From a virus, in IMG/VR virus record IMGVR_UViG_3300005578_000001, positions 1 through 64,000 of that record: a stretch of DNA of 64,000 bases. One strand, given 5' to 3'. The notes below the pieces were generated by a model that worked only from the letters and a program-made list of their open reading frames with translations, did not search any database and was not told where the DNA came from. Positions 3,174-29,937 of the stretch are shown in pieces (position 1 is the stretch's first letter; every line of letters starts with the position of its first letter). A program made the position numbers and the translations under genes.

Positions 3174-6100
3174 ATGTGCGCTCAAGTGGCCATCAGCCTT
3201 GCCGTGGCGGGCGCTACCACCGCAGCCCAGCTTCTCTTTGCGCCTAAGCCTAAGAAGCCTGCGCCGATCGATCGTGGCAAGCTTGATGATGCGCGATTTT
3301 CAATCCCCGCATTAGGCGCGGCGATTCCGAAAGGCTGGGGTACTTTTCGCTGTGCTCCGATCTGGATAGACCACGTTCCCACCATCCACACTGTTCAGGT
3401 TACAGAAGGACAATCAGGCGGCAAGGGGGGCTCGCCAACGCCTCCGACCGCGGATGAACGCAAACACATCTACACAAAGTCGGTGATTGGGGTCTTTCAC
3501 AACGGCCCTATCTTCAAAGGCGTCTCCAAGATGTGGTTTGGCGAGAAGCTTGTCTATAACTCTAATCTCGCCACCAACGAAGCTGATACCGCAACCCTGC
3601 GCGGTGAGGCAGAACATGGAGTACTAAGTGGCGGGGCGTCGGTGGTCACGCAGGCTGAATGCTCAGGTGGGCGTAAGGTAACGGGGATTGGAAGTGGTGG
3701 AGTGTGTGTGATCACTGTGGATGTGCCCACAACCGGAAGCTACGAGATTGCGTGCTTCTACACTTCAACAGTGCAGCGAACCTTTAAGATTCGGGTTAAT
3801 GGCGGGGCGCTCAATGATCTCGTTTGTCCAGCCTCGGGGGGCGCAGGTGAAGTTACCAGCGAGGTTATTACTCTTACTCTTACCGCGGGTGCAAATGCAA
3901 TTCAGTTTGAGAATTCGGGCGCTGCGTGTCCTGACCTTGACCGCATCGACGTAGCCCCAGCGCTCGTGTTCACGCCTGAGGGTGAAGACCCGCGTGGGTT
4001 TACCGGAATTATTCGTCCCGGTCGCTTTGGCCCTGACGATCCTGACTTTGCCTGGCCCGCGACAAATGAACAGCCGACGTTTAGCGAGACAACGGGTGGA
4101 ATGTCTAACGGAGGATTTATTCAGGCAAATCTTTCCGAATGGGGCAATCCGACTATCAGGTTTCACTTAGGCAGTGAACTACAGGAAGCCGATCCAATTA
4201 CTATCGCGTTGCGTGGCCTGAACCTCTCACCCGGCTATCGCGGGCTGGGAATCATAGCCATCGACAATATCCAGTTACAAAACGGGCAAATGCCGAATGT
4301 CACGCTGGAGATCCAACAGGGGGTACGTGAACTACCCGCGATCGTGGCCGATATTTACAAAGAGGTGAATGTCCCGCCTGAGTGGTTGGATTTGAGTGCC
4401 TTAGCCGGAAAGTTACTTGGAGATGAATCGGGCTTTGATCCCGGTACTTATACAGCCATCACGTGGACTGGGCTGAGTAACGCTACCCAAACAGGCGGAG
4501 GTGCGATTACCAAGACTTCGGGCACGAATAATACATGGAATGCTTATGCCAACTCAGGTGATTCCGTTTCAACGGGTACCAACGCCTCAATTCGCTTCAC
4601 CGCGGGTGCAGCGGGTACTTACATGGTGGGGTTTGCTTACACTACGACTCCCGGATCTACTCTTCCACACCCTTACGATCAGGTTCCGTTCGCGGTGGTA
4701 CTGAATAAGAATTCCAACCCCTCGCAGGAGGCCAAGAATTCGATCCAGCTCAGTCTAGGCGGGATCAATAACTCATTCGACGTAGGCATGTGGAGTGCGG
4801 GGGATAAGTTTCAGATCGAGTATCGTAATGGTCGATTCATGGCCTACCAGAATGGGTTAGCCCTAACTGGTTATATCCCTCCGGTTCCTTCTACTTTCCC
4901 GTTGAAGCCATTGTTCACGGGCTATGCGACAGGTGGTGGACCATCGGCAACTTCGTTCGCTACCGGGGCAAATATCGGCACTGAGCCTATCGTCGCCAAT
5001 GGGGGAGGATTGTTTATGGAATCCCCCGCCCCAGCCGCAGAGATGATCGCCGCCCTCATGCTGAGATTTCAATTCACTTTGCCCGAAGTTGACGGAGTAG
5101 TGAAAGCGGTGCTCAATAACGCTACTTCAGATCTGACTATCCCTTACACTGACCTGCGGGCGCACCGGGGCGAACAGCGCCCTCCTGAAGATATGATCAT
5201 CACGCGTGTTGATCCATTACAACTGGCAAAACGTACTACCGTTACTTATTCAGATCCTGCTTACTCCTATCACACGCGCACGCAATCAGAACAGAGATTA
5301 TTCGGCCCACAACAGGGAGCGCATGATGTAACTCTGCCGATGATCGAAACCGCGCAGAATATGAAGAACCTGGCGATTATTATTTCGAATCGCGAGGAGA
5401 TTGAAGGCCAGACGTACAAGTTTACGCTTGGCCCAAAGTACATGCGCATTCATCAGGGTACGGTGTTGACTATCAACGCTCGTTCCGGGGTTACACACAC
5501 AGTCAGGGTGAGAGATCTAGGGCTTGAACTTCCGGCTGGAGTAGTGGACGTAGATGCGGTCAGGCAAGATGCTTCAGTGTTCTCGGCTAACGGAACGCCG
5601 GGTGATATCGGAGTGGAGAGTCCGATTGTGCAAGTGCCGGGTAACACACTTGGAATCTTTCTCGACGCGCCCCTGATACCGCCGGATGATTCGGTGGATT
5701 TACCACAGCCAGTTTTATACATCGCCATGAGCGGTAGAGGCTCAGGTACATGGCCGGGTGGGTTCCTGTTCCGCGAGTTTCCTTTTAACTCCGGCAATTA
5801 TCAATTATTAACCAGCACGGATAAACCAGCCCTGACTGGAATCACTGCCGGGACATTGGGGAACCACGCAGATCTAACCGTGCTCGATACTGTAAACTCA
5901 GTGGCAATAAACTTCTATGGTCTAACCAGTCTGGAAAGCGTTACGGAGGCAGAGTTAATCGCCAACCCGCGCCTCAATCTGGTCGCTATCAAGGGCGCCA
6001 GCGGCGACTTTGAATACTTACAATTCCAGACTGCGACGCCGGGCGTGGCCGTAGCCCCTTATGTCTCGCGTTATACGATCAGTAACCTGTTGCGTGGGCG

Positions 6101-7193: not shown

Positions 7194-8108
7194 ATGGCTA
7201 ATACGCCAAACAGAAACTATCCGATACCCGATGCTGCGGGCTCAATCTACCCGCAGGTACGAGACCTCGCAATAGCAATTGACGCTGATAATATCCTGTG
7301 GCAGCCGATCCATAAAACACAGGTTGAACTGGATGCCATGCTGCCACCGCTGGAAGGCATTCTGTATTACAACACTGACGCGCATCACCTGCAAATGTTC
7401 GACGGTACAGCGTGGATCGTGTTTGGCGCAGGCGGCGGCGGCGGTATCATCGGCGTGCCACCATCCGCAACGGCATCATGGGCCAGTGATACGGGCGTGA
7501 CCGGATCGCCAGCCTCAGCGTGGGAGTCTATAGACGAATCTGTGACGCTGGCGCAGAGCAGTGGATCGAATCGCCCCGCAGTCACAGGCAGCGTGTTTGG
7601 TTCTACGCAAGGTTTGACGTTCGATGGCTCAAACGACAACCTGACTGTGGCAACACAGGTAATCACCGCTACTGCCGCAGGCACAATCAGCATTGTGTTC
7701 AAGACAGGCGCGAGCGTGGTCGGGCCGATGGTGATGGTCAGCCAGTCGGATTCAGCAGTGGCGAATAATTGGGTGGAGTTCGGCATCAACGCGGACGGCA
7801 GGCTATACATTGAATCGAACGCCAGCGGCACCAAGCACACCGTTGTCGGTTCCACGGTGTTGTTGCCCTCGACGCGCTATGACATGCAACTCGCCTTTGA
7901 TGGCATTGACTACTATATGCAGCTAAATAATGTCGAAGAAAACCCGCTGGAAATCGTGAACATTGGCGTGTTCGCGTGGTTCGGTCGCGTGGCAGGCACA
8001 ACGGCGTTCACGGTCGGCGGAACAATTACCAGCGGCGGGCTACAGCGTCCGTTCGCCGGAGCCGTTGGCGCAATCTACCTGTGGGCCGTGGATCTGACTG
8101 AGGCTTAA
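7194..8108 (+). CDS. Tail fibre / receptor-binding protein with LamG/ConA-like domain
   Basis: MANTPNRNYP N-terminus, GILYYNTD, poly-Gly hinge, LTFDGSND LamG-type start. Confidence 0.7.
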   Translation: MANTPNRNYPIPDAAGSIYPQVRDLAIAIDADNILWQPIHKTQVELDAMLPPLEGILYYNTDAHHLQMFDGTAWIVFGAGGGGGIIGVPPSATASWASDTGVTGSPASAWESIDESVTLAQSSGSNRPAVTGSVFGSTQGLTFDGSNDNLTVATQVITATAAGTISIVFKTGASVVGPMVMVSQSDSAVANNWVEFGINADGRLYIESNASGTKHTVVGSTVLLPSTRYDMQLAFDGIDYYMQLNNVEENPLEIVNIGVFAWFGRVAGTTAFTVGGTITSGGLQRPFAGAVGAIYLWAVDLTEA

Positions 8109-12868: not shown

Positions 12869-15076
12869 ATGGCTATCAGTAGACAGACTGGAATTATTGC
12901 AGCGCTGGTTATATCGCTGGTCCTATTAGTTAGCGGCGTCATCGCGCACGCGGAGGTTGAGGATACCGCAGACATTCCAGCTATTCGCCCTGACGTTCCG
13001 TTAAGCGATTCAGGTCAAATAAATCTTATCCGTAACCTGAACATGGCGGTGAATATCATTGTCGAGCCTCAGGGAGATGCACAAGCGGGAATTAACGCCG
13101 CACCCTGTGGGAGCGCGGTAACGCTGACAGCGGGAACGACATACGCGGCGAATCTAATTCTTCCTAAAAAGGATTGCATAAACTTCATTACCATCCAGTC
13201 ATCGCGAGCGAGTGAGCTAGCGGAAGGGAAGCGAATCGATCCTGCCACCCAAGCCCCGCTCCTTGTCACCCTTGAATCAACTGTCAACGCTGAACCTGTC
13301 ATTCAGACCGCTCTCGGCGCGCATCACTACAAGCTAATTGGCCTACGAGCTAAAACACGCGACACGTCAGTATTCGTCTATGACTTAGTCAGGTTCAGCG
13401 GCAGCGGGCAAACCTCCCCCGATCAAGTGCCGCATCATCTTATCTTGGATCGGGGTTGGATCGAAGGGAACGCGAATCAGGACACGCAACGTGGGTTAAC
13501 TCTCAACTGCGCAGACTGTGGCGTGATCAATTCCCACATCACTAATATCAAAGGCAAGGGCATGGACACGCAGGCCGTGTGCGGGTGGAATGGAACCTTG
13601 CGTGCCTACGTGCTGAACAACTACCTTGAAGCTACAGGTGAGAACGTGATGTGGGGCGGGGCAGATCCGGCACAGGAGTTAATGATTCCCACCAACGTTG
13701 AGGTACGCCGCAACACCATCAGCAAGCGGCTGGAATGGAGAGGGCAGGGTTACACGATCAAGAACCTCATTGAAATGAAGAATTGTATCGGCTGTACGGT
13801 TGATGGGAATATGCTCGTTAATAATTGGGGTAATGAAGGCCAAGCCGGGGCGGCAGTCGTCATCACCGTGCGTAATCAAGACTGTCGTGCCCCGTGGAGT
13901 ACAATTCAAAACGGAAGCTTCACTAACAACTTCGTGAGTAACTCCGACGGCGTATTCAACTTTCTTGGAAAAGATAATGAAGCTGAGCCCACTTATCAAG
14001 ATAGTCCCGGCCATCCGAAGTGCAGCGATCCGGGTGAATCCTACGGCTCAGTGCGTGGAAATGCATTCCTTGTCGCGAATAATGTCTTCGACAAGATCAT
14101 CGGACCATTCATCGTCATCAACGGCTTCTACAGCATCACAGTGGAGAACAATACTGATTTGCAAACCTGCACGCAGGGCTGTAACACTGCTACCTTCTAC
14201 GGTGAGCCCTCGATGAACTACATCCATCGTAACAACGTTCACGATGAGAAAGCTTATGGATTAGCCGGAGACGCAGGGAAGCCGCCGAGCTTCTATGTGC
14301 CGAATGCAATCATGACCGGGAATGTAATTGCGCATCCCTACTCCCCGTGGCCGAGCGGGAATACGACGGTTGAGAGCTTGACTATTACCTCTGACTACCG
14401 CACGCCATACGCAGGCGTCGGGGCGGATATTGATAAATTGTTAGCGGCACAGGCTGGGGGTGGGGTAGCGCCGAGTCCGAGTCCGTCTGTAACTGCCACG
14501 GTTACAATTAGTCCGAGCCCGACTGAAACACCTTCGCCAGTGGTGAGTCCGACGAACACGCCAACCGCGACAGCGACCCCAACGCCAACAGCTACGGCCA
14601 CCGCAACCCCGACAGCAACCGTAACTCCAGTTAACGTCTCCCTAGACAACACTCGACTCCCACCTGCGGGTCAGATTGTCGATTCATTATCAGCGGTCTG
14701 GACGTTGAGTGGGACAACGATGCTGCGCAATGGTTCGGACTCAGGTGGGCGAGGCTCGCTCATCGTCTGGTTTGGGGGACAGGTTTACGCGATTGGCGTC
14801 GATACTAACTGGTGGCACTACACAGGCGGCACGTCATGGGAGCGGGTGAGTGGAGATCCGGCTGGATCCACAACACCCACTCCGACTCCGAGCGCGGTCC
14901 CGACAGCCACGCCCGCGCCAACCAGTACGCCGGCGCCGACAAGTAGCCCCACACCACAGCCGACGCCTACGCCTACGCCTACGCCCGGCATACGCTTCTG
15001 TCCATCAGGAACACGGCCTGTGAATGGATGTGTATGTAGGAATGGGTTTAAGGGGGCTTCTGGGAAATGTCGATAA
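12869..15076 (+). CDS. Secreted right-handed beta-helix (pectin lyase-like) protein with Pro/Thr linkers
   Basis: AAAGGA RBS, signal peptide ending AHA, NNYLEA/RRNTI/DGNML/NNVF rungs, two PT-rich linkers, C-terminal Cys motif. Confidence 0.75.
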   Translation: MAISRQTGIIAALVISLVLLVSGVIAHAEVEDTADIPAIRPDVPLSDSGQINLIRNLNMAVNIIVEPQGDAQAGINAAPCGSAVTLTAGTTYAANLILPKKDCINFITIQSSRASELAEGKRIDPATQAPLLVTLESTVNAEPVIQTALGAHHYKLIGLRAKTRDTSVFVYDLVRFSGSGQTSPDQVPHHLILDRGWIEGNANQDTQRGLTLNCADCGVINSHITNIKGKGMDTQAVCGWNGTLRAYVLNNYLEATGENVMWGGADPAQELMIPTNVEVRRNTISKRLEWRGQGYTIKNLIEMKNCIGCTVDGNMLVNNWGNEGQAGAAVVITVRNQDCRAPWSTIQNGSFTNNFVSNSDGVFNFLGKDNEAEPTYQDSPGHPKCSDPGESYGSVRGNAFLVANNVFDKIIGPFIVINGFYSITVENNTDLQTCTQGCNTATFYGEPSMNYIHRNNVHDEKAYGLAGDAGKPPSFYVPNAIMTGNVIAHPYSPWPSGNTTVESLTITSDYRTPYAGVGADIDKLLAAQAGGGVAPSPSPSVTATVTISPSPTETPSPVVSPTNTPTATATPTPTATATATPTATVTPVNVSLDNTRLPPAGQIVDSLSAVWTLSGTTMLRNGSDSGGRGSLIVWFGGQVYAIGVDTNWWHYTGGTSWERVSGDPAGSTTPTPTPSAVPTATPAPTSTPAPTSSPTPQPTPTPTPTPGIRFCPSGTRPVNGCVCRNGFKGASGKCR
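14465..14630 (+). repeat. Pro/Thr/Ser low-complexity coding repeat (second tract at about 14870-14990)
   Basis: PSPSPS...TPTATATPTPTATATATPT. Confidence 0.8.
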
Positions 15077-27492: not shown

Positions 27493-27531
27493 AAAGGCCG
27501 GGAATGCCCAGATCCCGGCCTTTTGGTTTTT
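27493..27531 (+). terminator. Intrinsic terminator
   Basis: AAAGGCCGGGA...TCCCGGCCTTTT followed by a T tract. Confidence 0.8.
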
Positions 27532-27621
27532 GTGATGTTGGTTTACTGTTTAGGCACCTTGTAGGCGGCATGGCCCCACAAACCAGCCGCCCGTCCTTCA
27601 TCGCTTAATGGAGCACGCTTT

Positions 27622-27828
27622 ATGGCACGCATGTTAACGAGTCTTCAATGGTGGGAGATTACCGGCTACTGTGTTGCGCTAGGTCTAGTTGTTTTAGCTG
27701 CTTTAATGGATAAGATCGGCGGGCCGGACTCTGCGTCGGAACGCCTAAGCGGCATAATTGCGACTCTCGGCATCCTCGGATTCCTTGTAGTCTTCACAAT
27801 CGGTTTTGTGCTCAGGTTTGTGATCTAG
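27622..27828 (+). CDS. Small two-TM membrane protein
   Basis: GGAG RBS; two hydrophobic helices. Confidence 0.6.
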   Translation: MARMLTSLQWWEITGYCVALGLVVLAALMDKIGGPDSASERLSGIIATLGILGFLVVFTIGFVLRFVI

Positions 27829-27863
27829 GGACAAGGGCCGTGCCAGATTTTCAATTCCAGATT

Positions 27864-28358
27864 TCAGATTAGGACACTACCCAGTTTCGGTTTCGGCAGT
27901 GACTTCACCGGGGCGAGGTCAATAGCCAGTTCTTTCTTTGCGTCCCGGCCCGCTTGACTGAGCTTAGCAGCTACTCCCATAGCATGATCGTATCGAGCCT
28001 GTCCGATGCCATCTAAGCGCTCACGTGGCACAATAGCCAAGCGCCGGAACGCGCGTCCTGTATGCCGGATTCCCTGTTTGATGTTTCGCTCCGACTCTTT
28101 CAGGCGATCAGCCGGATTGAGAAACTTCAATCCGATTCCATGGATCCACTCACTGTCGATGTCGCGATCGTTGCGGAGTCTGCGCCGCCATGCGTTCACC
28201 ACACCGTAATAGCGATTGGTTTTAGCGGGGATTTTTATTAACGCTTCGAACTCTGAGTGACGGATCACTTGATCTTCATCCGGCGTGGGAAATGCCTCTT
28301 CCAGCTTGCGCACGTCGGGGCCGTAGGGAATGCCATTTACTAACTGAGCAGGTTTCAT
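27864..28358 (-). CDS. Hypothetical protein, last gene of the Cas7-like operon
   Basis: GGAG RBS, ATGA coupling; basic, wHTH-like N-terminal half and helical C-terminal half. Confidence 0.75.
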   Translation of the reverse strand: MKPAQLVNGIPYGPDVRKLEEAFPTPDEDQVIRHSEFEALIKIPAKTNRYYGVVNAWRRRLRNDRDIDSEWIHGIGLKFLNPADRLKESERNIKQGIRHTGRAFRRLAIVPRERLDGIGQARYDHAMGVAAKLSQAGRDAKKELAIDLAPVKSLPKPKLGSVLI

Positions 28359-28525
28359 TTCTTGTTTCTCCGATCCTTCATAAGCTCGGAAATAGATCCT
28401 TTCATTTCCACAGGTTTCTTTCTTCCGGCAAGTTGTTTGTTTACCTGAAGCGAATAGGTCAAAGCGCCCTTATGCTTACCATGCTTCCAGAATGCGCTGG
28501 ATTTCTGTCGCGTTTTGATTCTCAT
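28355..28525 (-). CDS. Small basic ORF directly after the repeat array
   Basis: ATG 10 nt after the last hairpin; stop overlaps the next ATG; no clear RBS. Confidence 0.4.
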   Translation of the reverse strand: MRIKTRQKSSAFWKHGKHKGALTYSLQVNKQLAGRKKPVEMKGSISELMKDRRNKK

Positions 28526-28534
28526 GGCAGTTAT

Positions 28535-28940
28535 ACGCCATTGGCGTCGTTGCTTAACCTGTCCGGGCCTTCCACGCTCCGCAACGCATAGCCGTGGATC
28601 GCTTAGCAATATAGAGCAAACTAATTTCAGGCCATTGGCCCCCATGACGTACCGAGCCCAGTAGGGCCGCGCAATGCACCGCTATAGCAATGCTCCGCGT
28701 TGGGAAAATCTATAATTGCAATAGGCCATAGGCCCCTAGCCATGCACGGCCTTACTACGGTGTGCCGCTCGCAGCCGAGCAACTGCCGGGCGCAGGCTGG
28801 CCCTGCTCTACGCAGAACTCTATATGATTTCAAAATGGACCATTGGTCCCCCCGCGCTGCGTTACCAACCTAGCCGCACAAAGGGCTACAGTGCCGGGCC
28901 GCGCGTCGCCACCCGAGGATAGCTCTGCTATACGGAGCCG
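28535..28940 (-). ncRNA. Four-unit array of NGY-NN pentamer repeats, each unit closed by a CC-WAT-GG hairpin (putative guide RNA array)
   Basis: Hand phasing shows 5-nt periodicity; hairpins at 28837-28849, 28724-28734, 28630-28640, 28535-28547; AT-rich linkers. Confidence 0.8.
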
Positions 28941-28947
28941 AAAACTT

Positions 28948-29607
28948 CTATTCTTCAACGGTTGCCTCAAACATTCCAAACTGCCCCGGCGTAGGGCTTC
29001 CCGGTCGCCAGTTTCCTAACCCCTTGTAGCGACCTGCTAATTCAAGGATCTGTCGGAGAATCTTGACTGTAATCGCCTCATCCATGATGACGATCCGCCC
29101 CTCAGTGGCCCACTGCTCGAAGCGTGGCCGCACTCGTATATGCTTACTTTGACCTACGCGCACGCGCTTGACGAACAACGAGAATCCAAGCTTCCGCACC
29201 CCTTCGATATGTTCGACAAAATGAGCCTTGTCCTTAAGATCGTTGATATCAGACATAGAGATCGTCGCGCCTGAGCCATTAATGAAGAGAGGCCAGTGAA
29301 ACTCAGGGCATAACAAACCGCTTTGCGATTGTGCCTTAAAAGTCTTCTTCCCCGATCCGGTCGGCACCTGAGCCCCGCCTTCCATCAGACAGCGCATGAT
29401 ATATTCACTTGGAATGGTAACGATTTCCCCGTCCGTATTCAGCGAGCCAATCCAGCGAAACGGCGGCGTTCGATCGTCGCCAGCTTTCGACTTCGCTTTA
29501 TTCTCAGGTTCTTTACGCCACTCGTCCATCGCGTCAGACCACTCGATATTATCAGCGTGCATGAGTAGGGGCGTTAAGCCCTTAATGGTAACTTTTACGT
29601 TTAACAT
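28948..29607 (-). CDS. Stand-alone Cas7/RAMP-like protein (Vipr-like)
   Basis: VTIKGLTPLLMH first strand, IPSEYIMRCL, RVRPRFEQW, C-terminal Gly loop AGRYKGLGNWRP....GQFGMF. Confidence 0.75.
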   Translation of the reverse strand: MLNVKVTIKGLTPLLMHADNIEWSDAMDEWRKEPENKAKSKAGDDRTPPFRWIGSLNTDGEIVTIPSEYIMRCLMEGGAQVPTGSGKKTFKAQSQSGLLCPEFHWPLFINGSGATISMSDINDLKDKAHFVEHIEGVRKLGFSLFVKRVRVGQSKHIRVRPRFEQWATEGRIVIMDEAITVKILRQILELAGRYKGLGNWRPGSPTPGQFGMFEATVEE

Positions 29608-29619
29608 AGACCGTTTCCC

Positions 29620-29901
29620 TTAGAGCCCAAAAACCTCACGGGCTTTTTCCAATCGTTGTAGATAGCCGCCATTACGTTTGCCTGCTTTAGAAGCCCAGCG
29701 AAACCGATGGCCGGGGAATACTTCAGCTTGGTCTACCAGTCCCGCTTTAACCAGCTTAGCGGTATGCGCACGTACCGTTCGCGCTGAAATAGCGCCTTCG
29801 ATTTGCTGCGCGATCTCCGAGTTGGTCAGCCACTTACTTTCGTCGCCGCGCAGGACTAAGTAAACTTTTAATTCGTGGATTGAGACTTCGCTTTTCTCCA
29901 T
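29620..29901 (-). CDS. Winged-helix DNA-binding protein, leaderless first gene of the Cas7-like operon
   Basis: WLTNSEIAQQ...ISARTVRAHTAKLVKAGLV; ATG 7 nt after the -10 box. Confidence 0.75.
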   Translation of the reverse strand: MEKSEVSIHELKVYLVLRGDESKWLTNSEIAQQIEGAISARTVRAHTAKLVKAGLVDQAEVFPGHRFRWASKAGKRNGGYLQRLEKAREVFGL

Positions 29902-29908
29902 ACGGCGG

Positions 29909-29937
29909 AGTATGGCATGGTGAGGCGAGGCAGTCAA
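29909..29937 (-). promoter_or_regulatory. Sigma70-type promoter of the Cas7-like operon
   Basis: TTGACT-17-CATACT. Confidence 0.65.

What the first reader, a model, noticed from the sequence alone, without database searches (positions are those of the whole stretch)
28535..28950. Array units are delimited by a covarying CC-WAT-GG mini-hairpin plus a conserved AT-rich linker
Seen on the minus strand: the units end in GGACC-AAT-GGTCC, GGCC-TAT-GGCC, GGCC-AAT-GGCC and ACGCC-AAT-GGCGT. The outer pairs change sequence but stay complementary. The linkers that follow are ATTTTGAAATCATATAGAGTT, TATTGCAATTATAGATTTT and TGAAATTAGTTT (consensus TG(A/C)AAT..TAG..TT), and the first unit is preceded by TAGAAGTTTT. 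Inference: the hairpin is a 3' cap or processing signal and the linker is a cleavage site, functionally like a CRISPR repeat but too degenerate for repeat finders. Unit lengths differ (about 18, 15, 11 and 14 pentamers) and include single-base phase slips.
Basis: partly seen in the sequence, partly recalled or inferred. Interest (0 to 1): 0.7.

Follow-up and report, generated by a model that had tools for sequence, protein, structure and literature searches.

The report
VIPR guide-RNA array with hairpin tails

Summary
On the minus strand, four GC-rich units (104, 92, 75 and 83 nt) each end in a 5-bp stem with a 3-nt loop (CC-WAT-GG core). They are separated by linkers that are 81-84% AT.

The gene just upstream (28948-29607, minus) is a Vipr protein. 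A profile of it matches the solved SUSP1 Vipr at E 3.8e-15, and its predicted fold matches Cas7-type RAMPs. The units are therefore vrRNAs: 12-18 pentamers of a relaxed NGY-NN repeat, followed by a structured 3' tail.

In 163 related loci, 52% of unselected array ends carry a hairpin that starts exactly 7 nt after the last GGY (9% in shuffles), with 40 different stem sequences. A covariance model built only from distant relatives finds all four window tails.

The linkers hold no promoter-like or terminator-like sites. Across the family they vary in length and sequence, so they are most likely removed when an operon transcript is processed. That step is inferred.

Unit 2 matches ImmA/IrrE (Peptidase_M78) genes of other phages at 12-13 of 15 dinucleotides under the published 1-nt-skip rule.

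This is a new member of a known kind. This scan has already noted VIPR loci in at least 83 other genomes, one of them with simple hairpins between guides. No RNA data exist for this phage.

The parts
29909..29937 (-). Only sigma-70-like promoter near the locus (TTGACT-17-CATACT with TG); likely start of the operon transcript
   Evidence: consensus match only, no transcript data
29620..29937 (-). Winged-helix protein gene (P0004, 105 aa as listed; the true start is probably the internal ATG). Specific to this phage, not a conserved part of the system
   Evidence: weak HTH hits; no homolog in about 167 related loci
28948..29607 (-). vipr gene (P0001, 219 aa): a single-RRM RAMP protein that binds the pentamer repeats
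   Evidence: phmmer to PDB 36pp_D 'SUSP1 Vipr protein' E 5e-9; family profile E 3.8e-15; model pLDDT 84 with top fold hits Csm3/Csm5, type VII Cas7 and Cas7-11; RNA-contact residues H17, R160, W200 and R201 kept, N199 in place of SUSP1 D177
28941..28947 (-). AT-rich spacer (AAGTTTT) between the vipr stop codon and vrRNA 1
28837..28940 (-). vrRNA 1: 18 NGY-NN pentamers (2 slips), terminal GG, then hairpin GGACC-AAT-GGTCC (28849-28837)
   Evidence: model R1 hit 28866-28834, E 0.013
28816..28836 (-). Linker 1, 21 nt, 81% AT, carries TGAAATCATATAG..TT
   Evidence: an orthologous linker is present in L008
28724..28815 (-). vrRNA 2: 15 pentamers, terminal GG, then hairpin GGCC-TAT-GGCC (28734-28724). 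Its guide dinucleotides match Peptidase_M78 genes of other phages
   Evidence: R1 hit E 0.011; target matches
28705..28723 (-). Linker 2, 19 nt, 84% AT, carries TGCAATTATAG..TTT
28630..28704 (-). vrRNA 3: 12 pentamers (1 slip), terminal GG, then hairpin GGCC-AAT-GGCC (28640-28630)
   Evidence: R1 best hit in the window, 19.7 bits, E 5e-4
28618..28629 (-). Linker 3, 12 nt, 83% AT, TGAAATTAGTTT
28535..28617 (-). vrRNA 4: 13 pentamers (1 slip), then hairpin ACGCC-AAT-GGCGT (28547-28535). The same tail closes the arrays of L001 and L085 (L008 has loop ATT)
   Evidence: R1 hit 18.1 bits, E 0.0016
28355..28525 (-). Small basic ORF (P0003, 56 aa) between the array and the accessory gene. Unique to this phage; status as a gene uncertain
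   Evidence: no family hits
27864..28358 (-). Conserved accessory gene (P0002, 164 aa), vap-like by position; function unknown
   Evidence: homolog downstream of vipr in 130 related loci; no Pfam, PHROG, NCBIfam or PADLOC hit; none in cultured phages

Best explanation
Region 28535-28947 (minus strand) is the guide-RNA array of a VIPR system (Viral Interference Programmable Repeat). It lies in a complete 81.8-kb phage genome from a rhizosphere metagenome.

Each unit is one vrRNA. It has a tract of 12-18 NGY-NN pentamers, in which the NN dinucleotides carry the targeting information. The tract is closed by a terminal GG and a 5-bp/3-nt-loop hairpin that starts where the Y of the next repeat would be.

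Vipr protomers (gene 28948-29607) coat the pentamer tract, one repeat each. The hairpin is this clade's version of the vrRNA 3' tail. I infer that it ends and registers the filament, marks the RNA as a cognate guide, and shields the 3' end from exonucleases.

The array is probably read through as part of one operon transcript (wHTH, vipr, array, small ORF, accessory gene). The AT-rich single-stranded linkers would then be cut and trimmed away, most likely by host endonucleases such as RNase E and by 3' exonucleases that stop at the hairpin or the protein.

The mature complexes bind double-stranded DNA of competing phages by the published rule of two paired bases and one skipped base, and silence it. 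Unit 2 is aimed at the HEXXH-coding stretch of ImmA/IrrE-type protease genes.

Shown here: homology, anatomy, family-wide conservation and covariation, and the target match. Inferred: expression, the processing sites and enzymes, capping, and silencing.
For: Identity of the system:
- P0001 matches the solved SUSP1 Vipr and folds as a Cas7-like RAMP.
- The preprints define vrRNAs as a pentamer tract plus a structured 3' tail. They report relaxed repeats (YNNNG), internal degeneracy, and ribozyme-interspersed or staggered arrays.
- In cryo-EM the SUSP1 tail caps the 3' end.

Hairpin as tail:
- All 599 period-5 GGY arrays called in 163 related loci lie on the vipr strand.
- 229 of 438 non-redundant, unselected array ends carry a hairpin of at least 4 bp starting exactly 7 nt after the last GGY. 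Shuffles give 9% and other offsets 3-24% (the 24% is offset 8, a sub-stem of the same hairpins). The 5' arms show 40 different 4-mers.
- In 29 seed tails all five pairs show changes on both sides, and some pairs are G.U, which pair only as RNA.
- Model R1, built without the window or its four nearest relatives, puts all four window tails among its top six hits, at E 5e-4 to 0.013.

Read-through and processing:
- The array has no promoter-like or terminator-like site on the minus strand.
- In relatives the last hairpin lies about 6-15 nt from the Shine-Dalgarno sequence of vipr or of the accessory gene.
- Some linkers in relatives are only 8-13 nt, too short for a promoter.

Function:
- Unit 2 matches four viral contigs at 12-13 of 15 dinucleotides (25-28 of 30 nt). 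The skipped base is always the codon wobble position of [IM]RFTVAHELGH in Peptidase_M78 ORFs.
- The phage itself has no such gene and no self-match.
Against: - No transcript data exist for this phage, so ends, processing and expression are untested.
- The pentamers are unusually degenerate: GGY in 33% of units, G1 in 41%, and 6 phase slips. This could mean decay.
- Only one of the four units found a target. The 8-unit runs of units 1, 3 and 4 gave 2, 5 and 0 hits, and none extended.
- The four unit-2 target hits are homologous to one another, so they count as one event. I estimate about 0.002 chance extensions for the 8 seed hits.
- The region as a whole does not fold better than shuffles (z -0.34), and each hairpin alone is not exceptional for its composition. 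The case for the hairpin rests on position and comparative data, not on energy.
- About half of my 'array ends' lack the hairpin. Many of these are internal breaks or other array types, but I did not sort them all.
Confidence: 0.82

Rival explanations
1. Vipr itself, or the conserved 164-aa accessory protein, recognises the hairpin and cuts at its 3' base, as Cas6 does on CRISPR repeats. On this view host RNases are not the processing enzymes. The hairpin, the following A and the GMAAT motif would together be a dedicated processing signal.
For: - Vipr is a RAMP, like Cas6.
- The layout of guide followed by 3' hairpin is the one Cas6 leaves.
- Loop sequences (AAT, TAT, GTAT) and the closing C-G pair are conserved while inner pairs vary. 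That fits sequence-specific protein contact.
- The base after the hairpin is A in 74% of short linkers.
- The text I could read does not address vrRNA biogenesis in arrays without ribozymes.
Against: - No nuclease activity is reported for Vipr.
- Other VIPR types place hammerhead ribozymes between guides. That argues Vipr does not process its own RNA in general.
- Vipr lacks the second RRM domain and other elaborations of CRISPR RAMPs.
- P0002 has no recognisable nuclease domain.
Confidence: 0.1
2. Each unit is its own transcription unit. The AT-rich linker would be a promoter (TTGAAA and TTGCAA resemble a -35 box, TATAGA a -10 box) and the hairpin a terminator.
For: - Linkers are 81-84% AT and contain TTGAAA/TTGCAA and TATAGA.
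- Hairpin 1 is followed by ATTTT.
Against: - The promoter and terminator scan finds nothing in the array on the minus strand.
- The two hexamer-like elements are 1-4 nt apart, not 16-18 nt.
- Linker 3 is only 12 nt, and linkers in relatives go down to 8-13 nt.
- Only one of the four hairpins has a U-run, and family-wide the next base is usually A.
- Downstream genes in relatives start about 6-15 nt after the last hairpin, so they need read-through.
Confidence: 0.05
3. The array is a decaying relic. The repeats have lost the first G and picked up frame slips because the system no longer works.
For: - GGY is present in only 33% of pentamers, with 6 slips.
- Relatives whose Vipr is 78-79% identical have clean GGY arrays.
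Against: - All four tails are intact and score with the family model.
- G2 and Y3 are kept at 84% and 93%.
- The Vipr variant with N at the G1-reading position defines a clade of at least 13 distinct full-length proteins, 81-93% identical to the window's.
- The sister phage L008 keeps 11 of 14 guide dinucleotides of unit 2.
- Unit 2 still matches a conserved target at 80-87% of its dinucleotides.
- The preprint reports YNNNG-type repeats and internal degeneracy in working families.
Confidence: 0.06
4. The inverted repeats act on DNA, as protein-binding palindromes or recombination sites, and not as RNA hairpins.
For: GGCC-WAT-GGCC is close to a palindrome and scores weakly on the opposite strand too.
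Against: - Strict strand bias: 599 of 599 arrays lie on the vipr strand.
- G.U pairs in stems would be C-A mismatches on the other strand.
- The hairpin keeps a fixed register to the RNA repeat.
- Stem sequences change freely, which does not fit a DNA-binding site.
Confidence: 0.02

Closest known systems
Type II VIPR of Escherichia phage SUSP1 and the Pseudomonas fulva prophage (bioRxiv 10.64898/2026.04.26.720920, 10.64898/2026.04.26.720927, 10.64898/2026.10.15.759431)
   Same: - A small single-RRM RAMP protein (Vipr).
- An array of roughly 75-105-nt RNAs built from pentamer repeats, on the same strand as vipr.
- A structured 3' tail after each tract.
- An adjacent accessory gene.
- Phage-borne.
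- A guide matching a competitor's gene with the skipped base at the wobble position.
   Different: - Vipr is only about 23% identical to the Felixounavirus proteins over its full length.
- The tail is an 11-13-nt hairpin, not a roughly 40-nt pseudoknot.
- The repeat is NGY-NN, with N199 in place of the G1-reading D177.
- The accessory gene has no match in cultured phages, and I could not assign it to vap1-6 or the locus to one of the seven types.
CRISPR repeat hairpins and Cas6 processing (for example types I-E and I-F)
   Same: - A variable guide capped by a small stem-loop that stays at the 3' end.
- An array of guide-plus-hairpin modules beside a RAMP gene.
- Stems that covary.
   Different: - There are no identical direct repeats; Tandem Repeats Finder reports nothing in the array.
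- The hairpins differ in sequence from unit to unit.
- The guides are gapped pentamer codes, not contiguous spacers.
- There is no evidence of a Cas6-type cut.
Hammerhead-interspersed and staggered vrRNA arrays of other VIPR types (figs S18 and S19 of 10.64898/2026.04.26.720920)
   Same: Several guides are encoded in one array and must be separated from a longer RNA.
   Different: No ribozyme: Rfam finds nothing in the window or in 14 related loci. Here the separators are short AT-rich stretches. Staggered GGAAC-type junctions do occur in some relatives.
Type III toxin-antitoxin RNA arrays (ToxI/ToxN); comparison from general knowledge
   Same: Tandem small-RNA units cut out of a precursor at A-rich sites next to a protein partner gene.
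   Different: ToxI units are near-identical repeats cut by the toxin itself. Here the units differ in sequence and length, and no ToxN-like gene is present.

Membership tests
VIPR system | Vipr protein: a RAMP homolog (RRM core, G-loop, thumb) related to SUSP1 Vipr | tested here: met
   PDB 36pp_D at E 5e-9 for the single sequence and 3.8e-15 for the profile, covering both N- and C-terminal parts. AlphaFold model pLDDT 84; top Foldseek hits are Csm3/Csm5, type VII Cas7 and Cas7-11.
VIPR system | Residues that read the GGY motif in SUSP1 (H17, D177, R138, W178, R179) | tested here: inconclusive
   By alignment, H17, R160, W200 and R201 are conserved. D177 is N199 here. Among 146 loci with a readable G-loop motif, 143 have D and only this phage and L008/L084 have N. 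The effect on binding is untested.
VIPR system | vrRNA tract of tandem pentamers (GGY/NN or a related consensus such as YNNNG), 9 or more repeats, on the vipr strand | tested here: met
   58 pentamers in tracts of 18, 15, 12 and 13. G2 84%, Y3 93%, G1 41%. Period-5 signal about 3.5 sd above the window background. The preprint lists YNNNG repeats and internal degeneracy.
VIPR system | Conserved structured 3' tail directly after the repeat tract | tested here: met
   A hairpin follows all four tracts. The same module sits at fixed register in 52% of unselected array ends of relatives, against 9% in shuffles. It is detected by model R1, built from distant relatives only.
VIPR system | Adjacent accessory (vap) gene | tested here: inconclusive
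   P0002 homologs lie downstream of vipr in 130 related loci, so the synteny is met.
VIPR system | Natural targets follow the 1-nt-skip rule, with the skipped base mostly at codon wobble positions | tested here: met
   Unit 2 matches Peptidase_M78 ORFs in L175, L177, L179 and L181 at 12-13 of 15 dinucleotides, with the skip at the wobble position. Units 1, 3 and 4 found no extended match.
VIPR system | vrRNAs are expressed as roughly 100-nt RNAs and co-purify with Vipr | not testable with these tools
   No RNA run holds this sequence.
CRISPR array | Near-identical direct repeats of about 21-48 nt alternating with spacers | tested here: not met
   Tandem Repeats Finder reports nothing in the array. 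The shared element is an 11-13-nt hairpin whose stem differs between units.
Intrinsic terminators / unit promoters | GC stem followed by a U-run; -35 and -10 hexamers 16-18 nt apart | tested here: not met
   No such site on the minus strand within 28535-28947.
tRNA or other Rfam RNA family (including hammerhead ribozymes) | Match to ARAGORN or to an Rfam covariance model | tested here: not met
   ARAGORN finds 0 genes. Rfam finds no match at gathering score in the window and only a chance-level hit outside the array at E 5.2.

The most novel reading that the evidence does not exclude
The mini-hairpin, the following A and the GMAAT-type linker could form a dedicated processing signal read by Vipr itself or by the conserved 164-aa partner. 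That would be a Cas6-like maturation step already present in the single-RRM ancestor-type RAMP.

Separately, the N199 clade could be a natural relaxed-specificity Vipr that reads NGY instead of GGY. That would show how the protein and its repeat code co-evolve.
Probability: 0.1. Interest if true: 0.7.

Novelty: new member of a known kind. Interest (0 to 1): 0.35.

Why it matters
VIPR was published only in 2026. The text I could read details tail structure for one clade only (the SUSP1 pseudoknot) and does not say how guides are released from arrays that lack ribozymes.

This locus and about 160 relatives show three things:
- A large soil and freshwater branch uses a minimal hairpin at a fixed register as the tail.
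- The guides sit inside an operon transcript.
- One sub-clade has lost the first G of the repeat and also carries a D-to-N change at the residue that reads that G.

These are small, testable additions for anyone engineering or annotating VIPR systems. They give a simple tail model for finding vrRNA ends and a candidate specificity switch. They do not define a new kind of system.

Tried and rejected
Leads that gave nothing:
- tRNA or tRNA-like genes: ARAGORN found none.
- Known RNA families, including ribozymes: none in the window, none in 14 related loci, none in the structured linkers of L025.
- Tandem or direct repeats: Tandem Repeats Finder found none in the array.
- Global RNA structure: the 461-nt region folds no better than shuffles on either strand.
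- DNA similarity to cultured phages: none.
- Family scans: no PADLOC defence model matched P0001-P0003, and P0004 gave only weak Csa3/CARF-type hits (E about 1e-3). No NCBIfam model matched P0001-P0003, and P0004 gave only weak hits far below the curated cut-offs.
- RNA evidence: no RNA holder listed.

I could not fetch the arrays of the 80-93% identical relatives P0005-P0017, nor of P0069, the second lineage with N in the G-loop. Viral-contig searches with P0069 and P0012 found no new N-type locus.
I used fixed 8-unit runs instead.

Target searches:
- Units 1, 3 and 4 gave 2, 5 and 0 hits, none extending.
- No self-target for unit 2 in the window, and no Peptidase_M78 gene in the phage.

Other points:
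- Two further model hits in the window, 19426-19450(+) and 29914-29937(+), match only the GGYNN part and have no hairpin. The first lies in a glycine-rich coding end.
- Substitutions between the orthologous unit 2 of the window and of L008 are too few (7 in the triplet positions, 3 in NN) to show different constraint.
Full report
**1. The observation**

Read on the minus strand, 28535-28947 holds four GC-rich units of 104, 92, 75 and 83 nt.
- Each element folds alone into a 5-bp stem with a 3-nt loop at -6.5 to -7.3 kcal/mol. Units 2 and 3 close with a G.U pair.
- The window holds only five such hairpins on both strands. Four lie within 315 nt on one strand, while shuffles give about 3.9 per 128 kb.
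- The linkers read as quoted and are 81-84% AT, against 30-42% in the units.
- The 5-nt periodicity is real: identity at lags 5, 10 and 15 is 0.33-0.34, against 0.25 with sd 0.023 in the rest of the window.

**2. What the locus is**

ARAGORN, Rfam and Tandem Repeats Finder find nothing in the array. The region as a whole folds no better than shuffles.

The key is the gene that ends 7 nt upstream (28948-29607, minus; P0001, 219 aa).
- It has no Pfam family.
- It matches the solved 'SUSP1 Vipr protein' (PDB 36pp) at E 5e-9, and at 3.8e-15 as a 16-sequence profile covering both ends of the protein.
- Its AlphaFold model (pLDDT 84) finds only CRISPR RAMPs of the Cas7 group: Csm3/Csm5, type VII Cas7 and Cas7-11.

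Three 2026 preprints describe VIPR systems. A small phage-borne RAMP (Vipr) polymerises on vrRNAs made of GGY/NN pentamers. The NN pairs read double-stranded DNA with one skipped base per repeat. Each tract is followed by a structured 3' 'tail'.
- The authors also report relaxed repeats (NNNGG, YNNNG, NNNNG), frequent internal degeneracy, staggered arrays and hammerhead-interspersed arrays.

The window is part of a complete 81.8-kb virus record with terminal repeats, from a rhizosphere metagenome. The four units are therefore vrRNAs, and the hairpin is their tail.

**3. Comparative test of the hairpin**

I fetched 163 loci encoding Vipr relatives, 45-87% identical.
- A simple caller for period-5 GGY runs found 599 arrays, all on the vipr strand.
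- I took all 438 non-redundant array ends without selecting for structure. Of these, 229 (52%) carry a hairpin of at least 4 bp whose 5' arm starts exactly 7 nt after the start of the last GGY (GGYNNGG|stem).
- The same test gives 9% on shuffled tails and 3-24% at other offsets. The 24% is offset 8, a sub-stem of the same hairpins.
- The 5' arms show 40 different 4-mers. Loops are mostly AAT, TAT or GTAT.
- On an unselected 110-sequence alignment, pairing and covariation exceed all 500 column shuffles in both the 3-nt-loop and the 4-nt-loop registers.
- In 29 seed tails every one of the five pairs shows changes on both sides, and some pairs are G.U.
- A covariance model was built from those 29 tails, leaving out the window and its four nearest relatives. 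In a filter-free search of the 64-kb window it places all four window tails among its six best hits (19.7, 18.1, 15.3 and 15.0 bits; E 5e-4 to 0.013). It finds no further tail in the whole phage genome.
- Exact counterparts of the window's four hairpins occur in distant loci.

The strand bias, the G.U pairs and the fixed register to the RNA repeat show that this is an RNA element, not a DNA palindrome.

**4. The repeat code here**

G2 and Y3 are kept in 84% and 93% of the pentamers, but G1 in only 41%. That corresponds to the preprint's YNNNG class.

In SUSP1, G1 is read by H17 and D177. Alanine substitution of D177 or R138 abolished silencing. G2 is read by R138 and W178, and Y3 sits in a pocket that includes R179.
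- By alignment, the window protein keeps H17, R160, W200 and R201 but has N199 in place of D177.
- Of 146 loci with a readable G-loop motif, 143 have D, and G1 is present in 91% of their NGY units on average.
- Only this phage and its sister L008 (identical to L084) have N, with G1 at 32-41%.
- Among the protein homologs, N marks a clade of 13 sequences 81-93% identical to the window's, plus one separate protein, P0069.

This is one lineage, so the link is suggestive only.

**5. The linkers**
- The scan for sigma-70-type promoters and intrinsic terminators finds nothing in the array on the minus strand. The only promoter-like site lies upstream of the winged-helix gene, at 29937-29909.
- In relatives, arrays end about 6-15 nt before the Shine-Dalgarno sequence of vipr or of the accessory gene. 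Those genes must therefore be transcribed through the arrays.
- Family-wide, inter-unit linkers range from 8 to 82 nt and fall into two classes. One is short, AT-rich and unstructured, as here. The other is about 45-50 nt, GC-rich and structured.
- In the 57 short linkers the first base after the hairpin is A in 74%. G[AC]AAT occurs in 10, against 2.4 expected from shuffles, often as AGCAATCAT.

So AT-richness and a loose motif are shared well beyond this phage, but the linker is not a conserved element in the way the hairpin is.

I infer that the linkers are the parts removed from an operon transcript. All four units are preceded by RR-UUU. As I recall it, that fits the RNase E preference (R-N-cut-W-U-U). 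That preference is from memory, the host is unknown, and nothing here tests it.

**6. Evidence that the units are working guides**

I applied the published rule (NN, skip one) to in-phase runs of eight pentamers.
- Unit 2 found eight viral contigs. Four of them extend to 12-13 of the 15 dinucleotides (25-28 of 30 nt).
- In all four, the skipped base is the wobble position of codons for [IM]RFTVAHELGH.
- These ORFs are Peptidase_M78 (ImmA/IrrE) proteins. From general knowledge, these are the proteases that inactivate repressors in prophage and ICE switches.
- The chance that any of eight seed hits extends by three exact units is about 0.002. The four hits are homologous, so they count as one event.
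- The phage has no M78 gene and no self-match.
- The same kind of search for units 1, 3 and 4 gave 2, 5 and 0 hits, none extending.
- The sister phage L008 keeps 11 of 14 dinucleotides of unit 2. It lacks the one-base slip at pentamer 7, which places the window's extra base in the flipped-out part of the repeat.

**7. How it most likely works**
- Shown: the protein family, the anatomy, the conservation and covariation of the tail, the lack of internal transcription signals, and one target match.
- Inferred: the operon RNA is made from the promoter at about 29937-29909. Vipr coats each NGY-NN tract. The hairpin, which begins where the next Y would sit, ends and registers the filament and protects the 3' end. 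Nucleases remove the exposed AU-rich linkers. The complexes then silence matching DNA of competitors, including ImmA-type protease genes.

Rivals are scored in their own section: self-processing by Vipr or the accessory protein (about 0.10), unit promoters and terminators (0.05), a decaying array (0.06), and DNA-level palindromes (0.02).

**8. Comparison and novelty**

The locus meets the defining features of VIPR that can be tested by sequence. It is not a CRISPR array, because it has no identical repeats.

Compared with the characterised type II systems:
- Vipr is only about 23% identical.
- The tail is a minimal hairpin.
- The repeat has lost G1.
- The conserved 164-aa partner (in 130 related loci) has no recognisable family.
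- The winged-helix gene and the 56-aa ORF are private to this phage.

This scan has already filed VIPR loci in at least 83 other genomes, including one with 'simple hairpins separating the guides' and several with relaxed NGY repeats.

The finding is correct and well observed. It is a new member of a known kind.

**9. Limits**
- There are no RNA data.
- Collection scans accept exact patterns only.
- My array caller treats internal breaks as ends, which lowers the hairpin fraction.
- I could read the preprints' text and legends but not their figures or data tables. I therefore cannot say whether hairpin tails of this clade are already drawn there, and I could not assign a VIPR type.

Noticed in passing
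window 29011-29013 (codon N199 of the vipr gene); L008, L084: The G-loop reads GLGNWRPG. The Asp that reads the first G of GGY in SUSP1 (D177) is Asn here. 143 of 146 related loci with a readable motif have D and keep G1 (mean 91%). Only this phage and its sister have N, with G1 at 32-41%. N also marks 13 homologs at 81-93% identity and, separately, P0069.
   Followed up: partly
L175 about 5318-5362, L177 about 5769-5813, L179 about 7438-7482, L181 about 13030-13074: Predicted targets of window vrRNA 2: the RFTVAHELGH-coding stretch of Peptidase_M78 (ImmA/IrrE) genes in four other viral contigs. 12-13 of 15 dinucleotides match, with the skipped base at the wobble position.
   Followed up: yes
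L017 2856-2925, L025 842-915, L009 2685-2760, L058 3730-3805, and many of L020-L035: A second class of inter-guide linker. It is about 45-50 nt, GC-rich, with two further stem-loops after the tail hairpin (pattern GCTG..CAGC GGG..CCC GGTG..CACC). Two of the four tested fold well below shuffles (z about -4). No Rfam family matches, hammerhead included, so it may be an undescribed processing or ribozyme-like module.
   Followed up: partly
L069-L076, for example L069 4477-4514 and L073 4217-4254: Arrays in which one tract runs straight into the next through a GAGGAAC-type junction with no hairpin. These are probably the 'staggered' arrays of the preprint.
   Followed up: no
window 29914-29937 (+): Four to five clean GGYNN pentamers on the strand opposite to the operon, overlapping its promoter-like site and the start of the winged-helix ORF. 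There is no tail hairpin. In 163 relatives no array lies on the antisense strand, so this is likely chance or a coding constraint.
   Followed up: partly
window 19426-19450 (+): The tail model hits a GGYNN-like run without a hairpin. It lies in the glycine-rich end of a coding frame and looks like a chance match.
   Followed up: yes
window 28355-28525 (-) and 29620-29937 (-): The 56-aa basic ORF and the winged-helix gene that flank the vipr-array core have no homolog in about 167 related loci. In most relatives a further vrRNA array sits directly upstream of vipr instead.
   Followed up: partly
L008 3646-3885 (identical to L084 3146-3385): The sister phage (Vipr 87% identical) has only two units. 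Its unit-1 tail differs from the window's by two compensatory pair changes. Its unit 2 joins the body of window unit 2 to a tail like that of window unit 4, which suggests a deletion between tails.
   Followed up: partly
window 27300-27863 (-): No vrRNA array follows the accessory gene here, although several relatives (L003, L004, L006, L007, L011) have one at that place. Another first-stage note places a transposon insertion in this area.
   Followed up: no
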